Part shown: positions 27,017 through 47,716 of the stretch, one piece after another
How the letters are laid out: every line of letters begins with the position of its first letter
Numbering within the stretch: the stretch's first letter is position 1
Origin: a bacterium
Lineage (GTDB): Bacteria > Patescibacteriota > UBA1384 > VFKW01
NCBI GenBank assembly: GCA_030647355.1
Contig: JAUSIS010000006.1
Coordinates: 253,465-317,464, forward strand
Reading direction: 5' to 3'
DNA: 64,000 nt
Program-made: the position numbers and the translations under genes
The notes under the pieces: generated by a model
What the model was told of the DNA's origin: nothing
What the model saw: only the letters and a program-made list of their open reading frames with translations
Database searches by the model: none

Positions 27017-27024
27017 GAGTAATT

Positions 27025-27387: not shown

Positions 27388-27388
27388 C

Positions 27389-27802
27389 TCAACTTAAAGC
27401 AGATTTTATTTTGTCTACAAATTCTTGAATATTACGCCCTTTTTGTTTTTCGATATCTTTTTGCCAAAATCTCAAAACCTTCCATCCTTCTTCGCGTAAT
27501 ATGTTGTTTACTTTTTGATCTCTTTTGATATTTTGCATAATTTTTTCACACCAAAACATAGAATATTTTTCTTTTTCACTTTCGAAATTTCTGCCGTGCC
27601 ACCAATCGCCGTCTACGAAAACGGCAATCTTTTTCTTAAAAAATATGATGTCTGGCTTCCCGTGCACCCGCTTGTCATGAATTCTGTATCTTAGTCCCTT
27701 TGCAAAAGAAGCCCGTCTTAAAATAAGCTCGGCCCTGGTATTTTTTGAGCGAATCTTGGACATAATCTCGCTTCGCTTTTGTTTTGAAAATATATCTGTC
27801 AT
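27389..27802 (-). CDS. vsr: Very-short-patch-repair endonuclease (T:G mismatch endonuclease)
   Basis: Vsr signature SEIMSKIRSKNTRAE...GLRYRIH...GKPDIIFFKKKIAVFVDGDWWHG. The longer track ORF to 28264 runs antisense into the methyltransferase gene. Confidence 0.8.
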   Translation of the reverse strand: MTDIFSKQKRSEIMSKIRSKNTRAELILRRASFAKGLRYRIHDKRVHGKPDIIFFKKKIAVFVDGDWWHGRNFESEKEKYSMFWCEKIMQNIKRDQKVNNILREEGWKVLRFWQKDIEKQKGRNIQEFVDKIKSALS

Positions 27803-27865
27803 TCTCGATTTCCTATTACGCACAAATTGTAGTATATTATCCTTATAAATTAAAGCAAACAATTT

Positions 27866-28750
27866 ATGAAAAAAAGCAAAGAAAACAAGTACAAGTTTAT
27901 CGATCTCTTCGCTGGAATAGGCGGATTTCATTTGGCTTTTCACAATCTTGGGGCCGAATGCGTTTTTGTTTCGGAATGGGATAGCCCTGCCAGAAAAACA
28001 TATCAAACAAATTTTGAAAAGATCTCCCCGAAGGTATTTAAAAACGGAAATTTCGCAGGAGACATTATGGCTATCGATCCAAAAGATATGCCGGATTTTG
28101 ATATCCTCACAGGAGGATTTCCCTGCCAACCTTTCAGTCAGGCGGGAAAAAAGAAAGGTTTCGAAGAAGCGAGAGGGACCATGTTCTTCAAGATTGCCGA
28201 GATCATCAAGGCAAAACAGCCGAAAGCTTTTTTTATCGAAAACGTCAGACATTTTATGAAACATAATAACGGGGAAACTTTTAAGACGGTTAAAAGAATT
28301 ATTGAGAAAGATCTAGGATATTCCTTTTTCCCTCAAATTATTAAGGCATCGGATTACGGACTGCCTACTCACCGACCCAGACTTTACATGGTAGGTTTCA
28401 AAGATAAAAGTATAAAATTCGATTTTCCCGAGACTAAACCGCTTTCTTTAACGATGTCGGATATTTTCGGCGGTGAATGCAATAAAAAGATCGGTTATAC
28501 TCTAAGGGTGGGAGGGAGACATTCCGGGCTTGCCGACAGAAGAAATTGGGATACTTATCTGGTAGACGGGAAAGTCAGAAGAATTTCGATTGAAGAAGGA
28601 AGAAAGATTATGGGGTTCCCTCAAAATTTTCTTTTCCCTGTATCTGAAACCCAGGCGATGAAACAGCTCGGTAACAGCGTTGCCGTAACTGCAATTCAAG
28701 CAACTGCGGAGAAAATTCTTGATGCATTAAAAGAAAGTGAGAAAAAATGA
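27866..28750 (+). CDS. DNA (cytosine-5)-methyltransferase (small, short target-recognition domain)
   Basis: Motifs I FAGIGGF, IV GGFPCQPFS, VI FIENVRHF, VIII QIIKASDYGLPTHRPR, X GNSVAV. Confidence 0.85.
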   Translation: MKKSKENKYKFIDLFAGIGGFHLAFHNLGAECVFVSEWDSPARKTYQTNFEKISPKVFKNGNFAGDIMAIDPKDMPDFDILTGGFPCQPFSQAGKKKGFEEARGTMFFKIAEIIKAKQPKAFFIENVRHFMKHNNGETFKTVKRIIEKDLGYSFFPQIIKASDYGLPTHRPRLYMVGFKDKSIKFDFPETKPLSLTMSDIFGGECNKKIGYTLRVGGRHSGLADRRNWDTYLVDGKVRRISIEEGRKIMGFPQNFLFPVSETQAMKQLGNSVAVTAIQATAEKILDALKESEKK

Positions 28751-29835
28751 GTCAACCGAAGATACATAAAGTAAACAAGGGGGAATGGAGCGAGTTTTAT
28801 ACTCTGCTTAAACTTTTAGCCGAACAGAGACTCTATGCGGCCGATGAAAACCTGGAAAAGATGCAGGAGATATTCTATCCCGTCCTGAAGGTTATTGAGG
28901 CCAAAGGAACAGATAAGGAAACTCATTATGAACTAAACGAAAAAGATGACGATATAAAAGTATTTTTGGCGAGCAAAGATTCATTTTTTACAGTTTCCAA
29001 AGAATCGCTAAAAAGTAAAATTAAAGAGGTATTCCTTGCTATCAAGAATTCAAATGCGACCTTTGCGATTCCCGTAGCCAGCAAAATACTCGACGAACTA
29101 AAAAGAGATCATGTAAAGACCATTTCAAGCCGAAAATCGGATATAGTTTTGGTTATACATGACATGAAAACTGGAACCGATCCCGAAGTAGGTTTCAGCA
29201 TAAAGTCCAGACTGGGAGGCGCTTCGACAATACTTAATTCTTCGGGTGCAACCAACTTTACTTATAAAGTGGAAGGATTCACGGGAAACATAGATGAGAT
29301 TAATTCGATAGTCAGTAGCTCAAAAGTCAGAGAGAGAATCAAACTCATCGAAGAAAAAGGCGGAGAACTTAAATACCATAGAATGGACAGTCCTATTTTT
29401 GAGTCTAATGTAAGAAAGATAGATAGCAATCTGCCAGAGATACTCGCCGAAGTACTTAAAATTTACTTTGCGGGCGAAGCTTCAACTATGCCAGAGATAT
29501 GTGAACTAATAAAAGCCCCAGGATTAAGTTTTACAGCCGACAACAGCTTCTTTGAATATAAAAGTAAGGAGTTTCTATTAAATATTGCTCTAGGCATGAT
29601 GCCCAACACCCTTTGGGACGGCCATCTCGAAGCTCACGGAGGATATATAATAGTACGAGAGGACGGAGAGATTGTCTGCTACCATATTTATAACCTTGAT
29701 CGATTCAGGGGATATCTTTTCGACAATACTAAACTCGACACCCCCAGCACTACAAAGCATGGTTTCGGCAAACTCTACAAAGATAACGGCGAATTATTCT
29801 TCAAGTTAAATCTTCAAATAAGATTTATTAAATAG
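28747..29835 (+). CDS. Putative type II restriction endonuclease partner of the methyltransferase (HpaII-like; tentative)
   Basis: 362 aa, translationally coupled (ATGA overlap) to the C5-methyltransferase, with a divergently transcribed vsr. The vsr-methyltransferase-REase arrangement and the ~360-aa size resemble the HpaII system. No catalytic motif was confirmed by eye. Confidence 0.4.
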   Translation: MSQPKIHKVNKGEWSEFYTLLKLLAEQRLYAADENLEKMQEIFYPVLKVIEAKGTDKETHYELNEKDDDIKVFLASKDSFFTVSKESLKSKIKEVFLAIKNSNATFAIPVASKILDELKRDHVKTISSRKSDIVLVIHDMKTGTDPEVGFSIKSRLGGASTILNSSGATNFTYKVEGFTGNIDEINSIVSSSKVRERIKLIEEKGGELKYHRMDSPIFESNVRKIDSNLPEILAEVLKIYFAGEASTMPEICELIKAPGLSFTADNSFFEYKSKEFLLNIALGMMPNTLWDGHLEAHGGYIIVREDGEIVCYHIYNLDRFRGYLFDNTKLDTPSTTKHGFGKLYKDNGELFFKLNLQIRFIK

Positions 29836-29848
29836 ATCGGGCATAAAA

Positions 29849-30415
29849 GTGAGTGATTTAGAAACATTTTTTCAACAATTTGAGAACTGGGTTCTTAAAG
29901 ACATGCGTCTAATTCTTAAAATTGAAGATGAAAATGGTAATTTAATAGAACCAGACAGAACAGCTTTTACATCTCGCAGACCATTAGTTGCAGCAGTAAT
30001 TCTAATGTGCTGTGCGATAGATTGCCTCGCAAGATTTCGATACGGAGAGATTGATCGTAATGTAGGCAGTTCGTTTAAAAACTTTGTTTTTGGTTATTTC
30101 AGTGAAAACGTTTCTTTTTCGGGAAAATCATATGATAAGCAAAAAATCTACAAAGGATTAAGGAATGCTTTAGTTCATGGCTATAGCTTAGGGAGAGATC
30201 TGGGATTGGTTCACCAGAGCTCCGAGAACCATCTTGACCAAGTTAACAATCGAGTTATTATAGATGTGTTTAGTTTATATTATGATCTAGAGACCGCCTA
30301 CAATAAATATAAACAAGAACTTATTGATGGTTCGTACCAAGAACAATTCAAAAGAAGATGGAGAGAATATCCCCTTATACAATTTATAACTGAAGAAAAT
30401 GTAAAAGGAAGGTAA
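29849..30415 (+). CDS. Hypothetical protein, possibly HEPN-like
   Basis: 188-aa mostly helical ORF containing RNALVHGY (an Rx4H HEPN-like motif). The start is uncertain. Confidence 0.3.
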   Translation: MSDLETFFQQFENWVLKDMRLILKIEDENGNLIEPDRTAFTSRRPLVAAVILMCCAIDCLARFRYGEIDRNVGSSFKNFVFGYFSENVSFSGKSYDKQKIYKGLRNALVHGYSLGRDLGLVHQSSENHLDQVNNRVIIDVFSLYYDLETAYNKYKQELIDGSYQEQFKRRWREYPLIQFITEENVKGR

Positions 30416-30440: not shown

Positions 30441-33257
30441 ATGATAGACAAAAATACAAACATGGACAAAGGCGCACACTTCTACAAATGCGATTTTCAA
30501 GTACATACACCACGGGACACCAATTGGAATGGTGATGCCGCTGTTTCTGATATAGAGAGAAAGGCATATGCCGAGGAGCTGATACAGGCTTGTCGAACAA
30601 AAGGACTAGATGCGATTGCGATTACCGATCATCATGATTTTGCGTTCTTTCCATTTATTAAAAAGTCTGCTCAAGATGAGTTGGACGATTCGGGTAATCT
30701 CGTTACTAAAGACAGGCAGATCGTTGTGTTTCCAGGTATTGAGCTTACATTGACTGCCCCAGCTTGTCAGGTAATACTACTTTTGGATGCGAATTTTCCA
30801 GAGAACTTGCTACAAAGTGTTCTTACGGCACTCTCTATCTCTCCAGCTTCGCCTACTGATGAAAAGCACGCAAAAATTGAAAGAGTTCCACAGAACGTTA
30901 TTAGCGACCTCTCCGATCTCTACCAGAAACTTAGTAGTCACGATCATTTAAAAGGCAGGTTTATAGTAATACCGAATGTCAGTGAAACTGGTCATGGGAC
31001 AATGTTGCGAACGGGCTTTGGCAATTTTTATAAGACAATGCCTTGTGTGGGCGGATACACCGACGGCCCAGTTTCTAAATTCGGCACTGGCAACCTTTCG
31101 ATTATACAGGGGAAAAATCGAGATTATGGTTTCAAGGCAATCGGTGTTTTCCAAACATCTGATAATCGAAAACGTAATCACGATGACCTCGGTAAATATA
31201 CCACATGGATAAAATGGTCTGAACCGACCGCGGAGGCGTTGAGGCAGGCCTGCCTAGCCAAAGAGTCGAGATTATCCCAGGACGAGCCTCTTCTACCGAA
31301 TATTTGGATCATGTCCATTAGCGTTTCCGCATCGAAGTTTCTGGGTAGAATCGAACTCGATCTCAGCCAACAATACAACGCAATAATTGGCGGCCGCGGG
31401 ACTGGTAAATCTACTATACTTGAGTACTTACGATGGGGACTTTGCGACCAACCATCGGAAGATATCGATTTTGATAATGTTCAAAAAAAACGCAAAACTT
31501 TAATTGATAATACACTACAAAAATTTGATGGAGAAGTACACGTTACCTTTCTGCTCAATGGTGTGAAGCATATTGTTAAACGGAACTCAAAAAAGCAGGA
31601 AATTCTCCTGAAAATCGGGGATTCGGATTTCGCGCAAACCACAGAACAGGAGATCAGGAATTTACTCCCGATCCAAGCTTATAGTCAAAAACAACTTAGC
31701 AGTGTAGGTGTACGAATTGAGGAATTAAGACGCTTTGTTGAGCTTCCTATAAAACAAGACCTTGACCAAACGCGATCAGAGATTAGGGATACTGAATCAA
31801 AATTGAGGATTGCTTACGGGAATCTCGTTCGCAAAAGAGAAATTGAAACCGAAGTAAGTAAATACAATATAGAAGCCTCTTCTCTAGTAGAGCAGCTTAA
31901 AGGTCTGCGCGATGGTCTCAAGGGTCTTTCGAAAGACGAACAGGCAATTATCAACCGAAAAATTAAATATGACAATGAAGAGTCTATTATCGGTAATTTC
32001 CAGAATACGTTTTCCAATGCCAAAACACTTATAGAAACCTTGAAGTCTGTAATTGATGTAGACCCCCCTAAACATGATAATGATAGCGTCGAACTGGAAA
32101 ACAAAACACTTATTGATACAATTCGCGATCAATTTTCCACACGCTTTGTTGATATCAATGTAAAAGTAACCGCACTCGATAATATCTTTGACGAGGCTTC
32201 GCTTGATAGTCTTACGACTGAAATTGAAAAATGGACGAAGTTAAAAACGGAATTTGACAAAAAATACGAAGCAGTCAAGGCAACGGCAAAAGCCAATCAA
32301 CAACAACTTGCTCAAATTCAGCAATTGGAAAAAAGAATAGCCGAATTAAAGAAGCTGCAAATTGATAAACGCAACTCACTTGAAACCCTAGCTGAATCAG
32401 AAAAAATCCACAAGGAATTAAGGCAAAAATGGGATATAGCGCATACCGATAAAATTACCGCTCTCGGAAAGCAATGCATGCAGTTTACCTCCTTGTCAAA
32501 TGGGCTTATAAAAGCAGAGATTACAAATAGTCTAGATATAGGGTCCCTCATGCAAAGATTTAAAATTGCTTTTAACGGTCTAAATATCAAGGAAGAAAAA
32601 ATTGAGAAAATTTGCCAATGCCTTGTCACGGCAACTGATCCCCTGGCGAAATGGAATGACATCTTAACTGAGCTCGAGAAGCTTGCCTGGCATTCTGCAG
32701 ATGGAACAACGACCATGCCAGACACTCCGACACTTGGACAGTGTGGATTTATTGACTCTGAGCGAGCACGGATTGTGGCTGGCTTTGATTCGGAGAAGTG
32801 GATTAATTTAGCTGTGACAGAATTGGAGTTCAACCCAAAATTCTCTTACTGTACAAACCAAGACAAGAATGAGTATATAGAATTTTCTGATGCTTCAGCT
32901 GGACAACAAGCTACTGCTCTTCTGACAGTGCTTCTTAACCAAAATGGAGCACCACTCATAATTGATCAGCCAGAAGATGATGTAGACAGCAAGATGATCA
33001 CGGATATTGTTAAGCAAATTTGGCTTGCGAAAAGTAACCGTCAGCTTATATTTGCAAGTCATAATGCTAACTTCGTTGTTAACGGGGATGCGGAGCTTGT
33101 TGTTTGTTGCGACTATGTAAAAGCTGCTGATCAAACAAACGGACATATTAAGGCAGAAGGGGCTATCGACAATAAAGCCATTAAAGAGGAAATAACATTA
33201 GTCACCGAGGGCGGTCCGCAGGCGTTTAAACTCAGAAAAGATAAGTACGGGTTCTAA
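30441..33257 (+). CDS. PHP-family phosphoesterase fused to an SMC/Rad50-like ABC ATPase with a long coiled-coil insert
   Basis: PHP motifs DFQVHTPRD, AIAITDHHD, FPGIELT. Walker A IIGGRGTGKST. About 400 aa of heptad-rich coiled coil. Signature SDASAGQQA, Walker B LIIDQPEDDVD, H-loop FASHNAN. Confidence 0.7.
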   Translation: MIDKNTNMDKGAHFYKCDFQVHTPRDTNWNGDAAVSDIERKAYAEELIQACRTKGLDAIAITDHHDFAFFPFIKKSAQDELDDSGNLVTKDRQIVVFPGIELTLTAPACQVILLLDANFPENLLQSVLTALSISPASPTDEKHAKIERVPQNVISDLSDLYQKLSSHDHLKGRFIVIPNVSETGHGTMLRTGFGNFYKTMPCVGGYTDGPVSKFGTGNLSIIQGKNRDYGFKAIGVFQTSDNRKRNHDDLGKYTTWIKWSEPTAEALRQACLAKESRLSQDEPLLPNIWIMSISVSASKFLGRIELDLSQQYNAIIGGRGTGKSTILEYLRWGLCDQPSEDIDFDNVQKKRKTLIDNTLQKFDGEVHVTFLLNGVKHIVKRNSKKQEILLKIGDSDFAQTTEQEIRNLLPIQAYSQKQLSSVGVRIEELRRFVELPIKQDLDQTRSEIRDTESKLRIAYGNLVRKREIETEVSKYNIEASSLVEQLKGLRDGLKGLSKDEQAIINRKIKYDNEESIIGNFQNTFSNAKTLIETLKSVIDVDPPKHDNDSVELENKTLIDTIRDQFSTRFVDINVKVTALDNIFDEASLDSLTTEIEKWTKLKTEFDKKYEAVKATAKANQQQLAQIQQLEKRIAELKKLQIDKRNSLETLAESEKIHKELRQKWDIAHTDKITALGKQCMQFTSLSNGLIKAEITNSLDIGSLMQRFKIAFNGLNIKEEKIEKICQCLVTATDPLAKWNDILTELEKLAWHSADGTTTMPDTPTLGQCGFIDSERARIVAGFDSEKWINLAVTELEFNPKFSYCTNQDKNEYIEFSDASAGQQATALLTVLLNQNGAPLIIDQPEDDVDSKMITDIVKQIWLAKSNRQLIFASHNANFVVNGDAELVVCCDYVKAADQTNGHIKAEGAIDNKAIKEEITLVTEGGPQAFKLRKDKYGF

Positions 33258-33276
33258 CCAATTTTTATATTTCTAA

Positions 33277-33594
33277 ATGAAAAATCTACCACAACTAAAC
33301 CGTGAACAACTGAATGAATGGCGAGAAGAAATATTGGGACACCGAAGCAAAAAGTTTCCAGAAAGTTTTCTATTTGATCAACTTTTTGATGAGAGATCTC
33401 CATTGGCTAAAGACAAATTACTATCTAAAAGAATTGAAATCCTGGTTAAAAAATACCCAAAGGCAGATACAAGAAAAAGCTTGAAAGAATTTGTCCCCAC
33501 AGCATTGGAGTTTTTAAAAGAGAATGGTTTTATTGATGACGAAACTTACTCCAAAGAAAGCTTGAATTGCCAAATTTTTATTGAAAATTCTTAG
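33277..33594 (+). CDS. Hypothetical small helical protein downstream of the PHP-ABC ATPase
   Basis: 105-aa ORF 20 nt after the ATPase stop. Confidence 0.3.
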   Translation: MKNLPQLNREQLNEWREEILGHRSKKFPESFLFDQLFDERSPLAKDKLLSKRIEILVKKYPKADTRKSLKEFVPTALEFLKENGFIDDETYSKESLNCQIFIENS

Positions 33595-33998
33595 TTCCTA
33601 TTGGAAAACCATTTTATTATTTTTGACCAATACCCCCCTTTGTTGTTGCCATAGTACCTATTTTTGTTTATTCGTTCTCTTTCTCGGCCTTCTCTAATTT
33701 CTTCATCTGTCCATTTTTCAGCCCAAATTACTTGGTTTCTCTTTATCCAGTAGTGGGATTGGCATTTATAGCTCCAGTTGCCAATCGAGGGTGAGAGCGA
33801 TATTGTTTTCCCATCATAAATTAACTTCCAATCCGTTGGAGTAAGCGGTGTTACTACTTCTTGTTGACAACCGCAGAAACATTTATGTATAGCCGTACCG
33901 TATTTTATTGAAATATAGATAACATTATCATCTAGGTCTCTTGGAATCTGCTCCACAAATTTATGCAATATAGTCATCATTGAATAATTTCCCGTCAT
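33591..33998 (-). CDS. Cys/His-rich small protein, last gene of the Ubl/E2-E1 operon (possible Zn-binding module)
   Basis: HKCFCGCQQ ... YKCQSHYW cysteine/histidine cluster. Overlaps the E2-E1 stop. Start taken at MTGNYS; the track ORF extends to 34049. Confidence 0.35.
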   Translation of the reverse strand: MTGNYSMMTILHKFVEQIPRDLDDNVIYISIKYGTAIHKCFCGCQQEVVTPLTPTDWKLIYDGKTISLSPSIGNWSYKCQSHYWIKRNQVIWAEKWTDEEIREGRERERINKNRYYGNNKGGYWSKIIKWFSNRN

Positions 33999-35142
33999 TA
34001 ATGGAATAAATTGTATTAAATTCTTTAGAAAGGTCTTGATAAAAACCAAAGAGCTTTTTCCATTTTATCACTGCTAACGTTGCGCTTAAAGCATTGAGGT
34101 CAGCTACCTGAATATTGGTTACATAGGCATCAGCGGCAGTTTTCTCTGCTACTGAGATTCTCTTTTCGATGTGATCTTTTTTCTCTTTTGTTATTGTGGT
34201 AACCCTTACATGGCCAAGAAGAGAATCGTCAGCTGTCAGCAACCCAATTCCGGCATCAATAAAGGGAATCTCTTTGGCAATTAAATGATCAATGATTTGC
34301 TTTTTAGCGACACCTTTGTCTATTGCTATAAACACGATATCCATTCCGGATAATTCTTCGAGTTTTTCGGCTGTCACATTATAAGGATGAGAATGAATAT
34401 TTTTGTGCATATTGGAGTAGATGCTCTGAAAATAATTCGTCTTCTTATTTGCTTCAGTCAATTTCTCTAATACTGGAGCACCGGGAGACCTATAGGCGTT
34501 ATGATTTAGGAGAACATCCTGGTCAAATAAATGAATTTCTTGCACGACAGTTTTGGCAATTAAATCTAGTATGTATGAGCCAGTTCCGCCCAACCCTACT
34601 ATTGCAATTTTCTGACCCTCCAATTTTTGCGTTATCGTGCTTATCTGTCCGCGGCTAATATTTGTATCCGGATAGTTAAAAACCGATTCGATACTCGGAG
34701 TGTTAATATCCTTGAATGGCTTTTCGGTAACTGTTCTGTCTAGCGCTTTAGCTTGTGCAGATATTATAGTTGCATAGTTAGACATCTTATGAAAGTAATC
34801 CTTGTATCCTTCCGTAGGCTTGTTTGAAAACGAGTGATTTACAATTATCCCACCCATTTGTATATCTTGGCTCCCGCTATGAATACCACTAATAAGGCTT
34901 CCGTCTTTATTACAAGGCAACTCTCCTTCCCAATAAGCAACATGTTGGGTTATCGGACTATTGGTAATATTACCGGCGATTGATGTTAAATCAGAGACCA
35001 AAGTACCATATCGAATCTGTTTGTCTGATGTAACATAAGGTATCTCATAAAGCAGAAGGCAATCATTGACGATTGCCACTGCATAACCTTCATCTTTTAA
35101 CCGCTTTAAATCCGGATTATGATTTATCAGTTCTTGTGGCAT
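33961..35142 (-). CDS. E2-like/E1-like (ThiF/MoeB adenylyltransferase) fusion protein, Cap2/BubCD-like
   Basis: C-terminal Rossmann motif QKIAIVGLGGTGSYILDLIAKTVVQEIHLFDQD is ThiF/E1-type. The N-terminal ~150 aa carry a candidate catalytic Cys (HVAYWEGELPCNKDG) in an E2/UBC-like position. Confidence 0.6.
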   Translation of the reverse strand: MPQELINHNPDLKRLKDEGYAVAIVNDCLLLYEIPYVTSDKQIRYGTLVSDLTSIAGNITNSPITQHVAYWEGELPCNKDGSLISGIHSGSQDIQMGGIIVNHSFSNKPTEGYKDYFHKMSNYATIISAQAKALDRTVTEKPFKDINTPSIESVFNYPDTNISRGQISTITQKLEGQKIAIVGLGGTGSYILDLIAKTVVQEIHLFDQDVLLNHNAYRSPGAPVLEKLTEANKKTNYFQSIYSNMHKNIHSHPYNVTAEKLEELSGMDIVFIAIDKGVAKKQIIDHLIAKEIPFIDAGIGLLTADDSLLGHVRVTTITKEKKDHIEKRISVAEKTAADAYVTNIQVADLNALSATLAVIKWKKLFGFYQDLSKEFNTIYSINDGKLFNDDYIA

Positions 35143-35392
35143 TGAAAATCATATCCTTTTTAACCTTAACCTCATCACCTTTTACCATTGTTCCCTCATC
35201 CGGATCGTTACCTTTGCTGTAAGAAACAGTGTAAACTATGTTCTCGTTTTCTTCATAGTTACCGAAAGCTATCTCGATTACCCGCTGAAATGTTATCATC
35301 TTGCCGGTAACTTGTTCCTCACGACCATTTACATAAATTGTGGTTGTTTTGTCGTGTCCTTGTCCTTCGTGTTTTTCTTCTTGGTTAGCCAT
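35117..35392 (-). CDS. Ubiquitin-like beta-grasp protein (multiubiquitin-family-like)
   Basis: 91 aa, TIYVNGREEQVTGKMITFQRVIEIAFG...VYTVSYSKG...GTMVKGDEVKVKKDMIFNATRTDKS pattern. Overlaps the E2-E1 start by 26 nt. Confidence 0.45.
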   Translation of the reverse strand: MANQEEKHEGQGHDKTTTIYVNGREEQVTGKMITFQRVIEIAFGNYEENENIVYTVSYSKGNDPDEGTMVKGDEVKVKKDMIFNATRTDKS

Positions 35393-35417
35393 AATAGCTC
35401 CTTTCTAATTATACTGA

Positions 35418-36035
35418 TTACAGAATTGGCGGAAGCACTTCGACCACTACTCCCTGAATTCTAAAATCTCTTGTTAAGACGATCGGTTTGTGTTCCTTGT
35501 TTGTTGATCGGGGCAAAAGAATATAAGCGTTCGGTGTTATAAATAACTCTTTTATAGTTGCTTCATCATCAATTAATGCTACAACCCTTTCGCCACTACG
35601 GGCCGTTTCCTGTTGTCGGATTAGAACAAAATCTCCGTCATTTATTCCACTCGCGTTCATCGAGTCGCCTTGTGCTTTCAGCATAAAGTATTTGTAGGGC
35701 GGATGGGCAATCTTGCTAGAAACAGGTATTAAAGCTTCAATATTCTCGACTGCCAAAACTGGGGCACCGCAAGCCACGCTTCCGACCAAAGGAACATTAA
35801 CTGTTACTGTCCGATCTTTCTCTTCGAAACTATCAGTTACTTGAAGCGATCCATTGGCTTTCTTCTTTAAAAATCCTTTTTTAATCAGTCCCTCAATAAT
35901 TAGTGCAGCGGATCTGGGGGAACCATATCCCAATGATTTCATTAGTTGACGCACCGAAGGAGAAGTGCCGTTTTGCAAGATAGCATTTCTAATTTCTTTT
36001 AGAGCTAAAATTTCTTTTGGGTTTAATATGTTCAT
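35418..36035 (-). CDS. lexA: LexA-like repressor (N-terminal wHTH plus S24 peptidase)
   Basis: N-terminal LexA-type DNA-binding domain. GDSM active-site Ser and a downstream Lys (ATIKELF). First gene of the four-gene minus-strand operon. Confidence 0.8.
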   Translation of the reverse strand: MNILNPKEILALKEIRNAILQNGTSPSVRQLMKSLGYGSPRSAALIIEGLIKKGFLKKKANGSLQVTDSFEEKDRTVTVNVPLVGSVACGAPVLAVENIEALIPVSSKIAHPPYKYFMLKAQGDSMNASGINDGDFVLIRQQETARSGERVVALIDDEATIKELFITPNAYILLPRSTNKEHKPIVLTRDFRIQGVVVEVLPPIL

Positions 36036-36266
36036 ACATACACTTTAATACAGCAAACATACAGTTGTCAAGAGCAAGGTAAAAATACTTTTTTCCTCCC
36101 GCCCAGTCTTCCCATCTTGTAGAATAAATAGTCTGTCTGCCTCAAGGTCGTTCATCTCGTAGGGTGCTCCACCTTGACCCAGCCAGCCAATTTATTCTTT
36201 GCCTCTCATCAGATGGGCGGGAAGGTCGATATCGCTCATTGTAAGTTAATTAGAGAGGAGGTATAT

Positions 36267-36593
36267 ATGGTAACTAAACAGATGGATGATACACGTACTC
36301 AACAAGCTATTCTAAACGATCAGTTTAGGAAGAGCGGATTCGGAGTAACGCTCACAGGCGGTGTCCAAAGTGTTGAGGATTTGCCCGGATTGCTTTTGGC
36401 AATTCAGGAGTTCGACAATTTCAATGAGGATAATGATCCCTGGCACGAGCACGACTTCGGTCGCTTGGACTGGCACGGTGATAAGGTCTTCTGGAAGATT
36501 GATTATTACGATCAGGAATTGCAGGAGTGGGAAGATCCGCTGACTGGGAGTTGCAGAAGAATAATAACGGTAATGCTGGCACAGGAGTATTAA
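36267..36593 (+). CDS. DUF3768-like conjugative-element protein (tentative)
   Basis: Strong RBS AGAGGAGG before ATG 36267. Motifs HEHDFG, KIDYYD and TVMLAQEY resemble the DUF3768 family found in plasmid/ICE leading regions. GC about 50%. Confidence 0.4.
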   Translation: MVTKQMDDTRTQQAILNDQFRKSGFGVTLTGGVQSVEDLPGLLLAIQEFDNFNEDNDPWHEHDFGRLDWHGDKVFWKIDYYDQELQEWEDPLTGSCRRIITVMLAQEY

Positions 36594-36963
36594 AGCTTAA
36601 AAGGCCTGGGAGTCGATGAGATTCTCAGGCTTTTTTTGTGGTTGTTCAGCTCTGAGCCATGGACAAAATCAACCGGTTGTGTTATTATTTATCCAATTCG
36701 GAGAAGAAAATGACTGTAAGTTTTATTGTTATCTTCTTCTCCAAATCATCCAGGAGAAGCATGCCCGCGGCATGAAGGCTCGCCTTACCGACTCATTGGT
36801 AAAAAACATTGTACGAACAATGGGCGATGAATTTATCCCCGACAAAAACGCACGAGCGTTGGGGCGCCAGCACTTTGCCATCAGGCCAAGGCAAAGAACT
36901 TTCACGAGAAAGGTGGCGATTCTGCTTAGGCCAAATCTCCACAGTGAGAAAGGATGACGTACC

Positions 36964-37758
36964 TTGGGAACAAAAACGAAATGCGCGCAAAAGTGGGAGA
37001 GCATGTTTGCTTTCCTTCGCCAAGACGACATGGAGAAAACATACTTGATGTTGCTAGGTCTGTCCAACAGCGTTAGTGACATTCAGACCCTTCATGCAAA
37101 GCTTCCGCCGAACGCTCAACTCTTGAGAGAAGATCGTAAGGAGCTAGAGAATCTGTGGAAAGAGCACCTTGCTCCGACTGGGACGTCGAAACCTGCCGGA
37201 ATAAGCGGTAGGGAGGGGGGCGACTGGCTGTTGCTCTCGCTCTTACCGAAAGGAAAGAAGATCAACGGGTTGCTAGACTACTATGAGAGGAAGCTTCGTG
37301 AGAGCAGGAACTGCTTAAACGCAAGCGACACCTATCTTCCCAGCATCGAGCAAGTATGCGACATTGCTATCGGGTGTGGTGAGCACCTCGCCAGCCACGG
37401 AAGGAATTTCCTTGCCCAGATGTTCGATGAGGAGTTTTCCTTCGGTGCTGCTTACTCTGGCTCTTTCGAAGGCAAACGAGACAAAGTGAGAATATGGTTC
37501 TATACCGAGTCTTCTCGCCTTACAGAGATCCTTGTTCACAAGCTAAGAAATCTGCCTGCTTACAAGCTGTATCAGTATGCCGGCGGGTTAGCATTCGCTT
37601 ACGAGATTCCCGCCCATGAAGAGAGTGGCTTGAGCTGGAGAAACATGGAGTGGGGAAACGGCGTTCATGTCTATAAGGCTCATGAAGATTTCACAGGTAG
37701 CGTCTGTGGGTATCTTCAGCAAATCGGAGTACCGATTGAGTCACTAACCGTGGCCTAA
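36964..37758 (+). CDS. Hypothetical protein in a GC-rich segment
   Basis: 264-aa ORF. Several overlapping ORFs at 36616-37082 make the 5' boundary uncertain. Confidence 0.3.
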   Translation: MGTKTKCAQKWESMFAFLRQDDMEKTYLMLLGLSNSVSDIQTLHAKLPPNAQLLREDRKELENLWKEHLAPTGTSKPAGISGREGGDWLLLSLLPKGKKINGLLDYYERKLRESRNCLNASDTYLPSIEQVCDIAIGCGEHLASHGRNFLAQMFDEEFSFGAAYSGSFEGKRDKVRIWFYTESSRLTEILVHKLRNLPAYKLYQYAGGLAFAYEIPAHEESGLSWRNMEWGNGVHVYKAHEDFTGSVCGYLQQIGVPIESLTVA

Positions 37759-37780
37759 ACGGGCCTGATAACTGCTATCT

Positions 37781-37818
37781 AGGGGTGTGTCCTAACGGGC
37801 CACCCCTTTTATTTTTTA
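37781..37818 (+). terminator. Rho-independent terminator
   Basis: AGGGGTG...CACCCCT stem followed by TTTTATTTTTT. Confidence 0.5.
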
Positions 37819-37835
37819 CAAGTGCTTTTTAATTT

Positions 37836-38624
37836 TTATTCCTCCTCTAAAACTTTCTGCAATGTCTCGCCATTCAGTCCCTTGCTGTCAACGAGTTCTT
37901 TGGTTGTAAGATAAAAAGACATTTCAGGCTCTCCCGAAAGTTTCTTGCGAATGTAATAGAACAAATGTCCTTTTGTCCTTGTGTTCGGGCAGATGAATAT
38001 AATTTCAGGGAATGGCTTGTCTGTGTTATCTTGCCAATCCCCGGAAGCATAATATTTAAAATATTGCGCTACCCGCCTGCGGTGCGCCGCCGGCGGAATA
38101 TCGTCTAAGATTTCTAGAAAGTAACGGATAATCTGTCCTTTCTTCTCCTCAATGGCGAAATGAGCATCGGGAGCAGGTGAAATAAAATGTTCCGTCCCGT
38201 GCAAATCGGTCTTGGTATAGAAATGGAGTGTTGATTTATTCTTTTCCGTTATGGCAAGTAAGGAAATATAGATATCGGCTAAAGATAAGCAATGTTCTCT
38301 AAACTTGGAAGAGTATTTCGCCTCTCTCCAGACCCGATCTAATAATGCCTGTTTAATATTGCCCTCCTTTAAACTCTTCAAATATTTTCTCCCCTTAGAA
38401 TCAAGCGAATAGACAGACGGAGACGATGCGATTGTTTTGTCGTAGTATTGTTTAGTGTAGTTTTGATTGGTTAGTTCGTTAAGCCAGGATAAGATGCGGG
38501 AGCGGTATTTGTGGTTGAGTAAGTTTTGTATGTGTAGGCGGTTTAGAAAGCGGAAGCGATAGAGAAGAATAAGAATGTCGGTTTGTCGTTTAGAAAGATT
38601 TTGTTGTGGTGATAATATTTTCAT
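37836..38624 (-). CDS. Replication-relaxation (Replic_Relax) family protein
   Basis: N-terminal wHTH LSKRQTDILILLYRFRFLNRLHIQNLL, typical of Replic_Relax proteins of conjugative elements. Confidence 0.55.
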   Translation of the reverse strand: MKILSPQQNLSKRQTDILILLYRFRFLNRLHIQNLLNHKYRSRILSWLNELTNQNYTKQYYDKTIASSPSVYSLDSKGRKYLKSLKEGNIKQALLDRVWREAKYSSKFREHCLSLADIYISLLAITEKNKSTLHFYTKTDLHGTEHFISPAPDAHFAIEEKKGQIIRYFLEILDDIPPAAHRRRVAQYFKYYASGDWQDNTDKPFPEIIFICPNTRTKGHLFYYIRKKLSGEPEMSFYLTTKELVDSKGLNGETLQKVLEEE

Positions 38625-38737
38625 AAGTTTAAAGCAATTAGTGCGTGTAGTATATATATAAAATATGTGGGTAGTGATTTTTTGTATTTTTAACCTTAAA
38701 TTCGGTCAAATTCCGTGTCCATAGGCGTACACAGAAT

Positions 38738-41368
38738 TTACCTGTAGGAATTCAAGCCGGCAGGGGCGGATTCGTTCGCTTTCTTTGGGCCGGTTTTGGC
38801 GGAGGGTTCGGATTGTACACCCGGCATTTCTTTTTTGACCGGCTTTACATATTCGACGGCGTAATTTTTTCTCGATGACTCAATTAAACTTTTCACTTTT
38901 GCCGGATTCTTTGGCGTTGTAATCGGTATTGTTTCTCCGGACAGGGGTTCCTGCGGTTCGACTGCTGCCATTTTCATATAGAATCGGTAGCGGGGCAGAT
39001 TGCCGATGTCGCCCTGTACCACCGCGGGGGCGAATTGGGACAGCATCAGATCTTCGTCAACCGGACTGGCCGTTCTAAAGCAAATGACCGTACCGGTATT
39101 GGCCAAAACAACATTGGTAACATTTTTGTTATCCTGCTGGGCTGTCGATTGTTCGGCAACGGTAATTCGGAGGCCGAACTTTCGTCCGCCGGATAAAAAC
39201 TTGGTGAACGATTTATTGGCAAAGTTTTGGAATTCATCGACGAATAGATAAAACGGCTGGCGCTTGGCGGTTTCCATTCTTGCTCTTCTGACGGCGGCTT
39301 GTTGGATTTTAGCCAGAACGGTCGCCCCCAGAAGCTGGGAAGTGTCTTCGCCCAGTTTGCCTTCCGCCAGATTGCAGATAAGGATTTTTCGGCTGTCCAA
39401 TATATCGTCAAAACTGATAGTGGATTTAGATTGCTCCAGTATCCGTCTGGCGGTAGCGGAGAAAAGAAATCGTCCTACCTTAGCGGTAATTCCGCCGATC
39501 ATTTTAACGTGCTGGTAATCGCCGGCTTTGCCGAACTCGTTTTTCCAGAAATTAATCAAATCCTCGTTTTTCAGATCCCTTATTGCCTGCCTTCGAACAT
39601 TTTGGTCGTTTAATAGATGATAGACGGTAAAGATCGTTCGATCGGGAACAACAAAAGCGGTGTGTATCGTGTTTCTAAGTATATACTCTATTCTATGAGC
39701 GTTCGCGTCTTCGTCCTTGAAAAAGACTCTTCTAAATATTGAGATGACGCTTTCACAGACCAGCTCTTTTTCCAACTCAAGATCGTCTTCTTCCAAGCTT
39801 TCGTCCAGTTCCAAAAGATTTATTCCGACAGGGAATTTAATATCGCGGGGGTTAAAATATATGAGATCATTTGTCCGCTCTTTCGGTACCGTATCAAGCA
39901 ATCCTTCCGCCAAGTCCCCATGCGGATCAATGACTGCCAGACCCCGCCCCTTTTTAATATCGTCGGATGCCATATGATAAATGATGGTTGATTTACCAGA
40001 ACCGGTTTGTCCGATTAGGTACAAATGGCGGGATCTGTCTTCATCAGTTAAGCCGATATCGGTTACAACATTTCCGTAAGTGCTTTTACCGAACACCACA
40101 TCAAGGTCTTGGTTATTCTTTAATACCAGCGGCGCAGGCAAATCTCGGCTCTTTACTCTTACAAGGTCTTCCGTATGGGTGTTGGCGGTATATGGGAAGT
40201 GATACAAAGCGCTGACTTCCGAAGTCGCCAGCACCAAAGGCGATCCGCTTAAACGCAGACGGAACATCAGCCACTTGAGCCGTTCAACTATTTTTACAGG
40301 ATTTCTCCATTTGGGAATAAGCGATTGCCCCGAAGAGTGCAGAAAGCTGGCAAATGATGAGCGCAAACCTCTTTCCCGCTCCAATATTTGATCCTCTGCC
40401 ATTACAAGGAGTGCCCGAACCGTTCCAGCAAATAGCGGTTGGTGTAGTTTGGATTTCATAAGATCGCCCATCTCTATATCCAATGTCGTAGCAGTTCTTT
40501 CAATACTTCCGCTATGAGGCAGAACATCGGCTTTCTGCCCGCTTGCAAATTCGGCCAGAAATAGAAGAGGCATCATAACAATTCGTACGGCCGATTCTAT
40601 CAGTCCGGCAATCAAGCGAAGCGTACTTTGCAGTTTAGTGTCGTTAATTCCTAAGGAGAATTTGTTTTGAGCGATAAGAGATTTAATTCTTGAGATTTCC
40701 TGCCTTTTGCCCATTTGGCGAAAGCCGTTTAGCGGCCTTAAAATTACCTGCAAAGCCATAAGCTCGCCTTTTTTTAACTGCGTCATGTTTCCGGTTAAGT
40801 AAGCCAGCGGGTCGTGCTTTTCCAGATGGGATTGCTCGTTTAGAGGCAGAGCAAAATGTTTGGCATGCTTGAATTCCAATATCCTCAAAACATTCGGCTT
40901 TGCGGGCAGGTAGTCGGCGATCTCTTTGACTTTAATACTCGGTATATATGAACGGAGATTCTTTTCGGCTACTTTGGCGATGTTTTCAGGGATACGCAGT
41001 ATATACCTAATCCCTGTTTCTTTAGCGGAAACTATTTCCAGAGAGCAAAACGGCTGTCTGAACAGCAACCTATCTAGCCAAGTGCGCTGGCTAATAAGAT
41101 TAGCGATTAAAGAGAACAATTGTGTTGTCGAAGCCGATGAGATTTCGGTCGTATGGGGAGGAGTGATTTCCAAAAAGACGAATTTGTCCTTTATGTCCCG
41201 ATAGGTTCGAACGATAGATAAAATAAGCGAAACAAAAAGCCAGAGGATTAAAAGAAAAAAGATATATACTGCTACGAGCTTAAGGTTGGAGTATGAAAAA
41301 GTGTGAACAAAAAAATTAGTAAGCGTATCTAAATCGATGGAGGATAATTTATTAGTTGCAGATTGCAT
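38738..41368 (-). CDS. Conjugative coupling-protein-like P-loop ATPase (TraD/VirD4/TraG superfamily) with N-terminal TM helices
   Basis: Two N-terminal TM segments. Walker A LIGQTGSGKST. Walker B FYLFVDEFQNF. Confidence 0.55.
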   Translation of the reverse strand: MQSATNKLSSIDLDTLTNFFVHTFSYSNLKLVAVYIFFLLILWLFVSLILSIVRTYRDIKDKFVFLEITPPHTTEISSASTTQLFSLIANLISQRTWLDRLLFRQPFCSLEIVSAKETGIRYILRIPENIAKVAEKNLRSYIPSIKVKEIADYLPAKPNVLRILEFKHAKHFALPLNEQSHLEKHDPLAYLTGNMTQLKKGELMALQVILRPLNGFRQMGKRQEISRIKSLIAQNKFSLGINDTKLQSTLRLIAGLIESAVRIVMMPLLFLAEFASGQKADVLPHSGSIERTATTLDIEMGDLMKSKLHQPLFAGTVRALLVMAEDQILERERGLRSSFASFLHSSGQSLIPKWRNPVKIVERLKWLMFRLRLSGSPLVLATSEVSALYHFPYTANTHTEDLVRVKSRDLPAPLVLKNNQDLDVVFGKSTYGNVVTDIGLTDEDRSRHLYLIGQTGSGKSTIIYHMASDDIKKGRGLAVIDPHGDLAEGLLDTVPKERTNDLIYFNPRDIKFPVGINLLELDESLEEDDLELEKELVCESVISIFRRVFFKDEDANAHRIEYILRNTIHTAFVVPDRTIFTVYHLLNDQNVRRQAIRDLKNEDLINFWKNEFGKAGDYQHVKMIGGITAKVGRFLFSATARRILEQSKSTISFDDILDSRKILICNLAEGKLGEDTSQLLGATVLAKIQQAAVRRARMETAKRQPFYLFVDEFQNFANKSFTKFLSGGRKFGLRITVAEQSTAQQDNKNVTNVVLANTGTVICFRTASPVDEDLMLSQFAPAVVQGDIGNLPRYRFYMKMAAVEPQEPLSGETIPITTPKNPAKVKSLIESSRKNYAVEYVKPVKKEMPGVQSEPSAKTGPKKANESAPAGLNSYR

Positions 41369-41792
41369 ATTATTCTCATAAATTCATTACCCTCCTTATA
41401 TGTTTGGTTTAACATAAGGTTGAGATTATGTAAAGAGAAAGGGCGATCGTGGCATATTGCCGTTGATCACCCTTCAGGATGAATCCATAGAACTGGAATG
41501 TTTTCCGACCCGCCATTAGCAGGCCGGATGAGTTGATGCTCTGGCTCTGTCGCCTGTTCTGAGCGTGATTCCCAAGCCAAACATGCTCAGAGTAGCCAAA
41601 CCGCTGACAACATAACCCAAAGTACCCGTCTGTGGCGCCTCTGGACCAGACAAGCTGGGACAGGTAGCTCCCACAATGATTATCACTGCCATAATGGTTC
41701 CGACCCAGACGCACATCGTATCCAGATCAAACGGCGTCCAAAAACTTAGAATGTACCGTATCACAGATACCACTCCTTTCTGGGCTGTCGCC

Positions 41793-42101: not shown

Positions 42102-42336
42102 TGTCTTTGAATTCGAAAAACAGGCATCTAACCAGTAATTATATAATAAACGAGTGCAAAAGTCAACAGTTTGAAAACGTAATTAACTGGTTAAAGGCGA
42201 CCATCGAGTTACTTCCAAACCAAGTACCCTATTGACAAGCGATTTATGGCTGTGTTACGAATGGATTAACAGAATAATAAATAACCGAACACAAGAGATG
42301 TAAACTTTCTCTTTGTAAGGAGGGAGAAAGGCATGT

Positions 42337-42666: not shown

Positions 42667-42671
42667 ATAAA

Positions 42672-47707: not shown

Positions 47708-47716
47708 GTAGAAATT

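What the first reader, a model, noticed from the sequence alone, without database searches (positions are those of the whole stretch)
33591..36035. LexA-like / Ubl / E2-E1 fusion / Cys-rich protein operon: a ubiquitin-like conjugation module under a putative SOS-type repressor
Four co-directional, overlapping minus-strand genes. First, a LexA-type wHTH plus S24 peptidase (GDSM). Second, a 91-aa beta-grasp Ubl of the multiubiquitin type with no C-terminal Gly-Gly. Third, a 393-aa protein whose C-terminal half is a ThiF/E1 Rossmann fold (GLGGTGS) and whose N-terminal half has an E2-like candidate Cys; this is a Cap2/BubCD-like E2-E1 fusion. Fourth, a small Cys/His-cluster protein (HKCFCGC...YKCQSH). 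No JAB/MPN deubiquitinase is evident. The S24 protease or the Cys-rich protein could take the processing or E3-like role; alternatively LexA may put the module under DNA-damage control. Bacterial Ubl/E1/E2 operons are only recently tied to antiphage defence. This composition, inside a conjugative island, deserves inspection.
Basis: partly seen in the sequence, partly recalled or inferred. Interest (0 to 1): 0.8.

Follow-up and report, generated by a model that had tools for sequence, protein, structure and literature searches.

The report
LexA-headed Type II Bub ubiquitin-like operon
This is a standard member of a bacterial ubiquitin-like protein-tagging system described in 2024 (Type II "Bub"), and its one unusual feature is that it follows directly after a LexA DNA-damage repressor gene whose relatives carry other immune genes in the same position.

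Summary
The four minus-strand genes exist exactly as described. Three of them form a standard Type II Bub operon (earlier names "6E.2" or "DUF6527" operon; Ye et al. 2024). They are BubA (91-aa Multi_ubiq Ubl), BubBD (E2-E1 fusion, 41% identical to the characterised E. coli ZDHYS365 enzyme) and BubE (DUF6527 zinc-finger Ser/His peptidase). Every published catalytic residue is present. The E2 nucleophile is Ser106, not a Cys. The E1 half has no Cys at all, which fits the published oxyester mechanism. The missing Gly-Gly is normal: 153 of 153 Type II BubA ORFs end in Ser. The missing JAB peptidase is also normal for this type.

The first gene passes NCBI's lexA equivalog cut-off and keeps the Ser125/Lys162 dyad. 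It is not a Bub component. Homologs 58-88% identical are followed by other cargo instead: a SMODS cassette, restriction-modification systems or DNA methyltransferases. Homology with the 88% relative ends 4 nt before the lexA stop. LexA-type neighbours occur at 8 of 140 Type II Bub loci, from several unrelated clades. The papers I found list CapW, CapH+CapP and CapK+CapS as Bub regulators, but not LexA.

Verdict: a known system with a modestly new regulatory arrangement. LexA control of the operon is inferred, not shown.

The parts
36042..36071 (-). Putative lexA promoter: -35 TTGACA, 18-nt spacer, -10 TAAAGT. The -10 ends 6 nt before the ATG and there is no Shine-Dalgarno sequence, so the mRNA is probably leaderless.
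   Evidence: 10 of 12 consensus matches. Conserved almost base for base in L083 and L164, while L083's sequence further upstream diverges. The leaderless reading is inference.
36038..36064 (-). Candidate LexA operator: three direct TGTAT repeats (CTGTATgtttgCTGTATtaaagTGTAT), spaced 11 and 10 nt, covering the spacer, the -10 and the start region.
   Evidence: TGTAT is enriched in the 40 nt upstream of lexA in 8 independent loci: 14 observed against 0.31 expected. CTGTAT is the E. coli SOS-box half-site (my own knowledge). Binding was not tested.
35418..36035 (-). lexA: wHTH DNA-binding domain plus S24 autopeptidase. Ser125/Lys162 dyad; predicted self-cleavage site Cys89-Gly90.
   Evidence: Pfam. 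NCBIfam TIGR00498 lexA equivalog, 139.8 bits against a cut-off of 110.95. Alignment with E. coli LexA and 16 homologs.
35393..35417 (-). 25-nt lexA-bubA spacer with AAGGAG ribosome-binding site (35398-35403). No terminator was predicted here.
35117..35392 (-). bubA: ubiquitin-like protein with one beta-grasp domain, ending ...TRTDKS. Ser91 is the C-terminus that is adenylated and conjugated.
   Evidence: Multi_ubiq 2.1e-13. [quoted passage not shown] 153 of 153 homologous ORFs end in Ser.
34663..35142 (-). bubBD, E2 (BubB-type, DUF6791) domain, residues 1-160. Active site His103, Ser106, Lys108 (Ser106 codon 34825-34827).
33961..34662 (-). bubBD, E1 adenylation domain, residues 161-393. GLGGTGS nucleotide loop, Arg218, crossover-loop Tyr340. 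No cysteine in this half.
   Evidence: ThiF 2e-13. Best PDB sequence hit is Citrobacter BubCD, 2.2e-5. 41% identity over the full length to E. coli BubBD, E 5e-92. R218 and Y340 are invariant.
33591..34049 (-). bubE: DUF6527 peptidase. C4 zinc finger (Cys57, Cys59, Cys61, Cys96) and Ser88/His99 dyad, in 152-aa numbering. The start is either the ATG at 33980 (129 aa) or the TTG at 34049.
   Evidence: DUF6527 6.8e-25. Pfam names this family BubE in the gene call. All six residues are conserved in at least 152 of 154 homologs and align with Citrobacter BubE S92/H102.

Best explanation
[quoted passage not shown] The four genes are most likely transcribed as one unit from the LexA-autoregulated lexA promoter.

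Inferred regulatory steps: in unstressed cells LexA binds the CTGTAT-type repeats over its own -10 and start region and keeps transcription low. DNA damage or phage replication produces RecA-ssDNA filaments. These trigger LexA self-cleavage at Cys89-Gly90 by Ser125/Lys162, and the whole operon is derepressed.

Conjugation steps, by homology with enzymes that have been tested: the BubBD dimer adenylates the C-terminal Ser91 carboxylate of BubA (Arg218, GLGGTGS loop). Tyr340 on the cysteine-free crossover loop takes BubA as an oxyester. BubA then passes to Ser106 of the E2 domain (helped by His103 and Lys108) and on to lysines of target proteins. BubE (zinc finger, Ser88/His99) cleaves the conjugates and so limits the reaction.

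The targets and the benefit to the cell (antiphage defence or a wider damage response) are unknown, for this locus and for the family as a whole.

For: LexA: it passes the lexA equivalog cut-off and has an intact dyad and cleavage-site Gly. Its promoter carries conserved CTGTAT-type repeats. The gap to bubA is 25 nt, with a ribosome-binding site and no predicted terminator. The same lexA-bubA-bubBD-bubE order occurs in L083 with different downstream genes. LexA-type genes sit next to 8 of 140 Type II Bub loci, in several unrelated clades and in both orientations, with operator-like palindromes in the shared promoter regions. Other Bub operons carry DNA-damage-responsive regulators (CapW, CapH+CapP, CapK+CapS) in the same position.
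Against: No expression, binding or cleavage data exist for this locus. The repeats in the promoter are direct, not the usual LexA palindrome, and occur only once in the 64-kb window. A perfect TATAAT in the lexA-bubA spacer could give LexA-independent transcription, although it lacks a good -35 and is not conserved in L083. Because the cargo behind lexA varies among relatives, the lexA 3' end might simply be an insertion hot spot with no regulatory meaning. The published work states that Bub operons have not been shown to protect against phage.
Confidence: 0.72

Rival explanations
1. The adjacency has no regulatory meaning. lexA is simply the conserved gene next to a defence-gene insertion hot spot, and the Bub genes have their own promoter and do not respond to LexA.
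For: Cargo behind lexA differs in every relative examined. Homology between the window and L164 stops 4 nt before the lexA stop codon. In L169, L170 and L172 the genes upstream of lexA are housekeeping genes. A TATAAT lies in the lexA-bubA spacer.
Against: The cargo is always co-directional. It follows lexA, or a small intervening ORF, after only 2-31 nt in all but one context (158 nt in L168). No terminator was predicted at the junction. Unrelated LexA-like genes were recruited independently next to Bub, some divergently with palindromes over the shared promoter. That pattern is hard to explain by a hot spot at one gene's 3' end.
Confidence: 0.2
2. LexA is mainly the repressor of the neighbouring conjugative element, in the manner of SetR in SXT elements. 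Bub would then be passenger cargo of that element.
For: DUF3768, a Replic_Relax protein, a coupling-protein-like ATPase, T4SS pilin/TrbL, PrgI, a VirB4/TraG-type ATPase and a large serine recombinase next to tRNA-Ala lie just upstream of lexA. The first of these is transcribed divergently from the lexA promoter region.
Against: In relatives LexA homologs sit beside housekeeping genes with no conjugation genes in view. No further copy of the operator-like motif was found near the T4SS genes. This reading does not exclude control of Bub as well.
Confidence: 0.1
3. The S24 peptidase is a working part of the conjugation system, acting as a Ubl-processing protease or in an E3-like role.
For: Type II Bub lacks a JAB peptidase, and LexA carries an active-looking Ser/Lys dyad.
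Against: BubA ends at the conserved Ser in 153 of 153 loci, so no processing is needed. About 94% of Type II Bub loci have no S24 neighbour. The closest LexA relatives head non-Bub cassettes. BubE already supplies the peptidase activity. S24 LexA-type proteases cleave themselves, not other substrates (established family knowledge).
Confidence: 0.02
4. The genes are a ThiF/MoeB-type sulfur-carrier activation system with a ThiS/MoaD-like partner.
For: Weak ThiF/MoeB matches over the Rossmann fold.
Against: The scores are far below the family cut-offs (36 against 159, and 32.7 against 275) while PRK06153-type models score 507 bits. The protein has an E2 domain. The Ubl has no Gly-Gly. There are no thiamine or molybdopterin genes nearby.
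Confidence: 0.01

Closest known systems
Type II Bub operon of E. coli ZDHYS365 (BubA/BubBD/BubE; Ye, Gong, Chambers & Corbett, bioRxiv 10.1101/2024.11.21.623953)
   Same: Same three genes in the same order. BubBD is 41% identical over its full length. The Ser106, Arg and crossover-loop Tyr residues match. BubA ends TDKS in both. BubE has the same C4 and Ser/His motif. Neither has a JAB peptidase.
   Different: BubA here has one beta-grasp domain (91 aa) rather than three. The operon is headed by lexA. The host is a Patescibacteria-like MAG.
Type I Bub operon of Citrobacter sp. RHBSTW-00271 (BubAB, BubCD, BubE; PDB 9eav and related entries)
   Different: Type I fuses the Ubl to the E2 and a JAB peptidase to the E1. 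Its Ubl ends in Gly after cleavage. Its E2 site uses Ser/His/Asp rather than Ser/His/Lys.
Regulators of immune operons that respond to DNA damage: CapW/BrxR, CapH+CapP, CapK+CapS
   Same: They are encoded immediately upstream of Bub, CBASS and other immune operons and are thought to derepress them on DNA damage. In my census CapH/CapP-like genes (HTH_3, Peptidase_M78) are the commonest neighbours of Type II Bub.
   Different: LexA is a single protein that would sense damage through host RecA filaments and self-cleave. CapW binds ssDNA directly, CapP is a metallopeptidase that cleaves CapH, and CapK is a kinase. None of the papers I read lists LexA among Bub regulators.
CBASS Cap2 (E2-E1 fusion) with Cap3
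   Same: An E2-E1 fusion in one polypeptide within a defence context; the E1 regions are homologous (PADLOC E1-E2 hits down to 3.4e-11).
   Different: Cap2 uses catalytic cysteines, conjugates a CD-NTase rather than a Ubl, and is paired with the JAB peptidase Cap3. Only the E1 region aligns.
Canonical SOS repressor LexA (E. coli) and UmuD
   Same: Same domain architecture, Ser/Lys dyad, length and equivalog-level score. The CTGTAT half-site resembles the E. coli SOS box.
   Different: The cleavage site is Cys-Gly, as in UmuD, rather than Ala-Gly. The candidate operator consists of direct repeats. The gene heads swappable defence cargo.

Membership tests
Type II Bub operon (6E.2 / DUF6527 operon) | Stand-alone ubiquitin-like protein BubA with a beta-grasp (Multi_ubiq) domain | tested here: met
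   PF14452 2.1e-13. PDB 9cd2 (E. coli BubA) 6e-9, with the same TDKS C-terminus.
Type II Bub operon (6E.2 / DUF6527 operon) | E2-E1 fusion protein BubBD | tested here: met
Type II Bub operon (6E.2 / DUF6527 operon) | E2 active site with an invariant Ser accompanied by His and Lys, and no catalytic Cys | tested here: met
   H103 and S106 invariant and K108 at least 90% conserved in 23 sequences; the HxFSNKP motif aligns with E. coli S106. Cys77 is nearly invariant but is replaced in P0039.
Type II Bub operon (6E.2 / DUF6527 operon) | E1 with an adenylation Arg and an invariant crossover-loop Tyr, with no Cys | tested here: met
   R218 and Y340 invariant. Residues 161-393 contain no cysteine (sequence).
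Type II Bub operon (6E.2 / DUF6527 operon) | DUF6527 protein BubE with a C4 zinc finger and a Ser/His dyad | tested here: met
   PF20137 6.8e-25. C57, C59, C61, C96, S88 and H99 are conserved in at least 152 of 154 sequences and align with the Citrobacter residues.
Type II Bub operon (6E.2 / DUF6527 operon) | No JAB/JAMM peptidase in the operon | tested here: met
   No JAB domain in the four genes or in the neighbours scanned.
Type II Bub operon (6E.2 / DUF6527 operon) | ATP-dependent BubA conjugation through oxyester intermediates | not testable with these tools
   Needs biochemistry. Inferred from residue conservation only.
LexA (TIGR00498, SOS repressor) | N-terminal LexA-type wHTH plus C-terminal S24 domain, scoring above the curated equivalog cut-off | tested here: met
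   139.8 bits against a cut-off of 110.95. Pfam domains.
LexA (TIGR00498, SOS repressor) | Ser/Lys catalytic dyad and an Ala-Gly self-cleavage site | tested here: inconclusive
   S125, K162 and G90 are invariant, but the residue before the Gly is Cys, as in UmuD, in this clade. Cleavage itself was not tested.
LexA (TIGR00498, SOS repressor) | Autoregulation through an operator in its own promoter | tested here: inconclusive
   Conserved CTGTAT-type repeats overlap the -10 and the start. In the window they are direct repeats, not a palindrome. L172 and L086 have inverted versions. No binding data.
LexA (TIGR00498, SOS repressor) | RecA-stimulated cleavage and control of an SOS regulon | not testable with these tools
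   No recA gene or other SOS genes lie in the window. Only one copy of the operator-like site is present.
CBASS type II Cap2/Cap3 | E2-E1 fusion with catalytic Cys residues, a CD-NTase substrate and a Cap3 JAB peptidase | tested here: not met
   PADLOC E1-E2 models align only to residues 140-295. There is no CD-NTase and no JAB. The E1 half has no Cys.
Bil (bacterial ISG15-like) operon | Separate E1 (IAD-AAD-CYS), separate E2, a JAB deubiquitinase and a Ubl | tested here: not met
   E1 and E2 are fused, there is no JAB, and a DUF6527 protein is present instead (definition).
ThiF/MoeB sulfur-carrier activation | Equivalog-level match to ThiF or MoeB, and a carrier protein ending in Gly-Gly | tested here: not met
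   ThiF models score 36.0, 32.7 and 30.2 bits against cut-offs of 159, 275 and 152; MoeB scores 20.7 against 266. The Ubl ends in Ser.

The most novel reading that the evidence does not exclude
A clade of true LexA repressors provides a portable, SOS-controlled expression slot. Diverse immune cassettes are exchanged directly after the lexA stop codon and are co-transcribed from the LexA-autoregulated, probably leaderless, promoter. The cassettes seen so far are Type II Bub, a SMODS/CBASS-like set, type II and IIG restriction-modification systems, and Dam-like methyltransferases. LexA would then be a fourth DNA-damage-responsive regulator class for Bub and other immune operons, after CapW, CapH+CapP and CapK+CapS. 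Among these regulator classes it would be the one that senses damage through host RecA filaments. Unrelated LexA-like genes have also been recruited to Bub operons independently.
Probability: 0.4. Interest if true: 0.6.

Novelty: new variant of a known kind. Interest (0 to 1): 0.4.

Why it matters
The conjugation module adds nothing new. It is one more Type II Bub operon among thousands: 5,991 BubBD homologs in the protein search, and at least 591 genome stretches. It does extend the family to a Patescibacteria-like genome.

The context is the part with some value. Bub operons have no demonstrated biological role yet, and the main clue so far is their link to DNA-damage-responsive regulators. 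A true LexA heading the operon would connect Bub directly to the classical RecA/LexA SOS pathway. That makes a simple prediction that can be tested: induction by mitomycin C, abolished by a non-cleavable LexA.

The wider pattern may interest people who study how immune operons are regulated and exchanged. lexA was followed by swappable defence cargo in every relative sampled. This needs a proper census before any weight is put on it.

Tried and rejected
- PADLOC gave no hits for LexA, BubA or BubE and only E1-region hits for BubBD. That library dates from 2023 and predates Bub, so its silence means little.
- Sequence search of the PDB with BubE found nothing meaningful. This agrees with the paper's statement that no BubE structure exists.
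- A search for attachment-site direct repeats bounding the mobile element found only short, unconvincing repeats, so the element's limits stay open.
- The 17-nt operator-like sequence has no second copy in the window, even allowing three mismatches, so no regulon could be defined.
- The look-up of the 94%-identical LexA (P0121, on the 60.9-kb contig that also carries the 81% BubBD) found no record. The look-up of that BubBD returned only a 2.2-kb contig.
- One literature search was swamped by unrelated words beginning with 'Bub'. A whole-word search fixed this.
- I first took the host to be an Omnitrophota relative because the named LexA homologs are from Omnitrophica MAGs. LeuRS neighbours point to Patescibacteria instead, so whether this lexA is native or acquired is unresolved.
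- The supplement's machine-read E. coli BubBD sequence shows V, not Y, one residue from the published Tyr342 position. It aligns with window Tyr340. I treated this as a text-extraction error and relied on the invariance of Tyr340.
Full report
**1.

Four co-directional minus-strand ORFs lie at 35418-36035, 35117-35392, 33961-35142 and 33591-34049. Their Pfam matches are far above chance:
- LexA_DNA_bind (3.8e-7) plus Peptidase_S24 (5.5e-28)
- Multi_ubiq (2.1e-13)
- DUF6791 (2.1e-50) plus ThiF (2e-13)
- DUF6527 (6.8e-25)

bubA overlaps bubBD by 26 nt. The last gene starts either at a TTG (34049, 152 aa) or at the ATG that an independent gene call uses (33980, 129 aa). lexA and bubA do not overlap. 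They are separated by 25 nt that carry an AAGGAG ribosome-binding site.

**2. What the three downstream genes are**

Full-text search for the Pfam names led to two 2024 preprints from the Corbett laboratory. They rename the "6E/DUF6527" operons as Bub (bacterial ubiquitination-like). [quoted passage not shown] That is exactly this gene set.

The match extends to residue level:
- **BubBD overall.** It is 41% identical over its full length to E. coli ZDHYS365 BubBD (E 5e-92). In that enzyme R219A, Y342F and S106A each abolish conjugate formation.
- **BubBD catalytic residues.** In an alignment of 23 homologs, His103, Ser106, Arg218 and Tyr340 are invariant and Lys108 is nearly so. The E1 half (residues 161-393) contains no cysteine. 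This fits the published oxyester relay (Tyr, then Ser) and rules out a thioester on the E1.
Cys77 is nearly invariant but is replaced in one homolog. The literature assigns catalysis to the Ser.
- **BubE.** It carries the four zinc-finger cysteines and the Ser/His dyad described for Citrobacter BubE. Each is conserved in at least 152 of 154 homologs.

**3. The family is large and very uniform**

The protein search returned 5,991 BubBD homologs with E at most 1e-5. The genome scan found at least 591 matching stretches. Across 81 genome loci, BubA was found in 78 and BubE in 80. Two regularities stand out:
- All 153 BubA ORFs end in Ser, with consensus T-[D/N]-[K/R]-S. The missing Gly-Gly is therefore the rule for Type II, and the Ubl needs no processing.
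- The bubA stop lies exactly 26 nt inside bubBD in 149 of 150 loci. This points to translational coupling and to a dual-coding constraint on both protein termini.

**4. The LexA gene**

It scores 139.8 bits on NCBI's lexA equivalog model, against a cut-off of 110.95. It keeps Ser125, Lys162 and the cleavage-site Gly90. The residue before the Gly is Cys, as in UmuD.

Is it tied to Bub? Three results bear on this:
- Within its own small clade, yes. L083 (BubBD 76%, LexA 84% identical) has the same four genes in the same order but different downstream neighbours. L082 has the LexA C-terminus in the same place.
- Among 140 Type II Bub loci, the nearest upstream ORF is LexA_DNA_bind plus S24 in 8. 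HTH_3 occurs in 30, Peptidase_M78 (CapP-like) in 19 and DUF2188 in 14.
- Those eight LexA-like proteins are only 27-39% identical to this one, apart from L083's. Some are divergently oriented, with their own palindromes over the shared promoter. LexA-type regulators therefore joined Bub operons several times independently.

**5. The closest LexA relatives do not head Bub operons**

| Locus | LexA identity | What follows lexA |
|---|---|---|
| L164 | 88% | 189-aa protein, SMODS nucleotidyltransferase, SEC-C-motif protein |
| L165 | 62% | 167-aa ORF, then an MmeI/Eco57I-type enzyme |
| L166, L167 | 62% | Two Dam-like methyltransferases, then a DUF7226 ATPase |
| L168 | 62% | XhoI endonuclease plus methyltransferase |
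| L169 | 62% | 67-aa ORF, then two Dam-like methyltransferases |
| L170, L171 | 63% | Methyltransferases |
| L172 | 60% | 58-aa and 491-aa ORFs, then two type IIG enzymes |

- DNA homology between the window and L164 covers the promoter and lexA only, and stops 4 nt before the lexA stop codon.
- The cargo is always co-directional. The gap after lexA is 2-31 nt in every case except L168, where it is 158 nt. In some loci a small ORF comes first.
- In L169, L170 and L172 the genes upstream of lexA are housekeeping genes.

LexA is therefore not a Bub component. It is the fixed head of a position where defence cargo is exchanged. The sample is small: eight contexts beyond the window's own clade. 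They were chosen by similarity and contig length, not at random.

**6. Promoter and operator**

A sigma-70-like promoter (TTGACA, 18 nt, TAAAGT; 36071-36042) ends 6 nt before the lexA ATG. There is no Shine-Dalgarno sequence, so the mRNA is probably leaderless.
- Three TGTAT repeats, spaced 11 and 10 nt, cover the spacer, the -10 and the start.
- This block is almost identical in L083 and L164, while L083's sequence further upstream diverges.
- Across eight independent lexA loci, TGTAT occurs 14 times in the 40 nt before the start codon, against 0.31 expected.
- L172 and L086 have inverted versions, ATACAG-T-CTGTAT and ATACATA-CGA-TATGTAT.
- CTGTAT is the half-site of the E. coli SOS box (my own knowledge).
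- No terminator is predicted between lexA and bubA.

These features fit autoregulation and co-transcription, but neither has been shown.

**7. Genomic setting**

LeuRS neighbours place the host among Patescibacteria. The named LexA relatives come from Omnitrophica MAGs, so the origin of this lexA is unclear.
- **Upstream of lexA (36.1-49.3 kb):** DUF3768, a Replic_Relax protein, a coupling-protein-like ATPase, T4SS pilin/TrbL, PrgI, a VirB4/TraG-type ATPase, an M23 peptidase and a large serine recombinase abutting tRNA-Ala.
- **Downstream of bubE (24-33 kb):** a TrlF-family, Ppl-like ATPase, an HpaII-type restriction-modification system with Vsr, and a PLD-domain protein.
- I could not find attachment sites.

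**8. Comparison with the literature**

Published Bub regulators are CapW and CapH+CapP (219 of 544 operons) and CapK+CapS (59 of 544). [quoted passage not shown] Neither that paper nor the two Bub preprints, nor the supplement text that was searchable here, mentions LexA or S24. Two broader searches found no report of lexA encoded ahead of Bub or CBASS operons. The library covers open-access papers only, so this absence is not proof.

**9. Verdict**

- The E2 nucleophile is Ser, not Cys.
- The Cys-rich protein is the deconjugating peptidase BubE.
- The S24 protease is not part of the conjugation chemistry.

What remains modestly new is the regulatory arrangement. A true LexA heads the operon, a recurring minority of Bub loci have LexA-type neighbours, and one LexA clade has swappable immune cargo. 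I rate the identification as Type II Bub at about 0.95, LexA control of the operon at about 0.6, and overall interest at 0.4.

Noticed in passing
L164:88-3050; L165:73-3135; L166:4474-8353; L168:5001-7248; L169:6001-8658; L170:6001-8918; L172:4315-10941: Every LexA homolog context I sampled (58-88% identical to the window's LexA) has co-directional defence-type cargo right after lexA: a SMODS cassette, XhoI or MmeI/Eco57I-type restriction-modification systems, or Dam-like methyltransferases. A small 58-189 aa ORF often comes first.
   Followed up: partly
window 35117-35142, and 149 of 150 related loci: The bubA stop codon lies exactly 26 nt inside bubBD in 149 of 150 Type II Bub loci. This out-of-frame overlap is strictly conserved. 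It encodes both the BubA C-terminus (T-D/N-K/R-S) and the BubBD N-terminus (MSQxLINH).
   Followed up: yes
window 35117-35122 (BubA C-terminus), and 153 related loci: All 153 Type II BubA ORFs end in Ser at the natural stop codon. In this type the residue that is adenylated and conjugated is therefore Ser, not Gly. I did not find this spelled out in the text of the preprint.
   Followed up: yes
window 30441-33594: A 938-aa PHP-plus-ABC-type ATPase (NCBIfam TrlF family, 8e-154; PADLOC Ppl, 6.7e-43) is followed by a 105-aa ORF with no family match. The two converge on bubE, and the small ORF's end overlaps the bubE stop by 4 nt.
   Followed up: partly
window 26288-30415: The defence island continues with a PLD-domain protein, a Vsr endonuclease, a cytosine methyltransferase, an HpaII-type endonuclease and an unassigned 188-aa ORF.
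   Followed up: partly
window 36174-49302: A conjugative-element-like block: DUF3768, a Replic_Relax protein, an 876-aa coupling-protein-like ATPase, T4SS pilin/TrbL, PrgI, a VirB4/TraG-type ATPase, an M23 peptidase and a large serine recombinase. The recombinase's 3' end overlaps tRNA-Ala(GGC) on the opposite strand. No attachment repeats were found.
   Followed up: partly
window 19934-23461: The leucyl-tRNA synthetase (1175 aa) carries inserted NUDIX and serine-hydrolase domains. The NUDIX insert is shared by most of the nearest homologs, several of them labelled Patescibacteria. The hydrolase insert is shared by a subset.
   Followed up: partly
window 54457-54633: A cobalamin riboswitch (Rfam RF00174, 41.5 bits against a gathering score of 31.5) lies upstream of the ORF at 54675-55163.
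   Followed up: no
window 24713-24751 and 25862-25900: A direct repeat (39 nt at 87% identity, with similarity continuing beyond it) flanks a 1.1-kb segment. That segment holds a 252-aa ORF with no Pfam match (24969-25727, minus strand) and has a higher G+C content (0.48) than its surroundings.
   Followed up: no
L088:3793-3921; L093:3684-3811; L098:3315-3447: Divergently oriented LexA-like genes next to Bub operons share a palindrome, GATAACC-N9-11-GGTTATC, just downstream of a TTGAC...TATAAT-type promoter that faces bubA. This is a different candidate operator from the one in the window.
   Followed up: partly
Nearest upstream ORFs of 140 Type II Bub loci (alignment A3): Besides CapH/CapP-like and LexA-like genes, DUF2188 (14 loci) and DUF3892 (6 loci) proteins recur immediately upstream of bubA. 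Their role is unknown.
   Followed up: no
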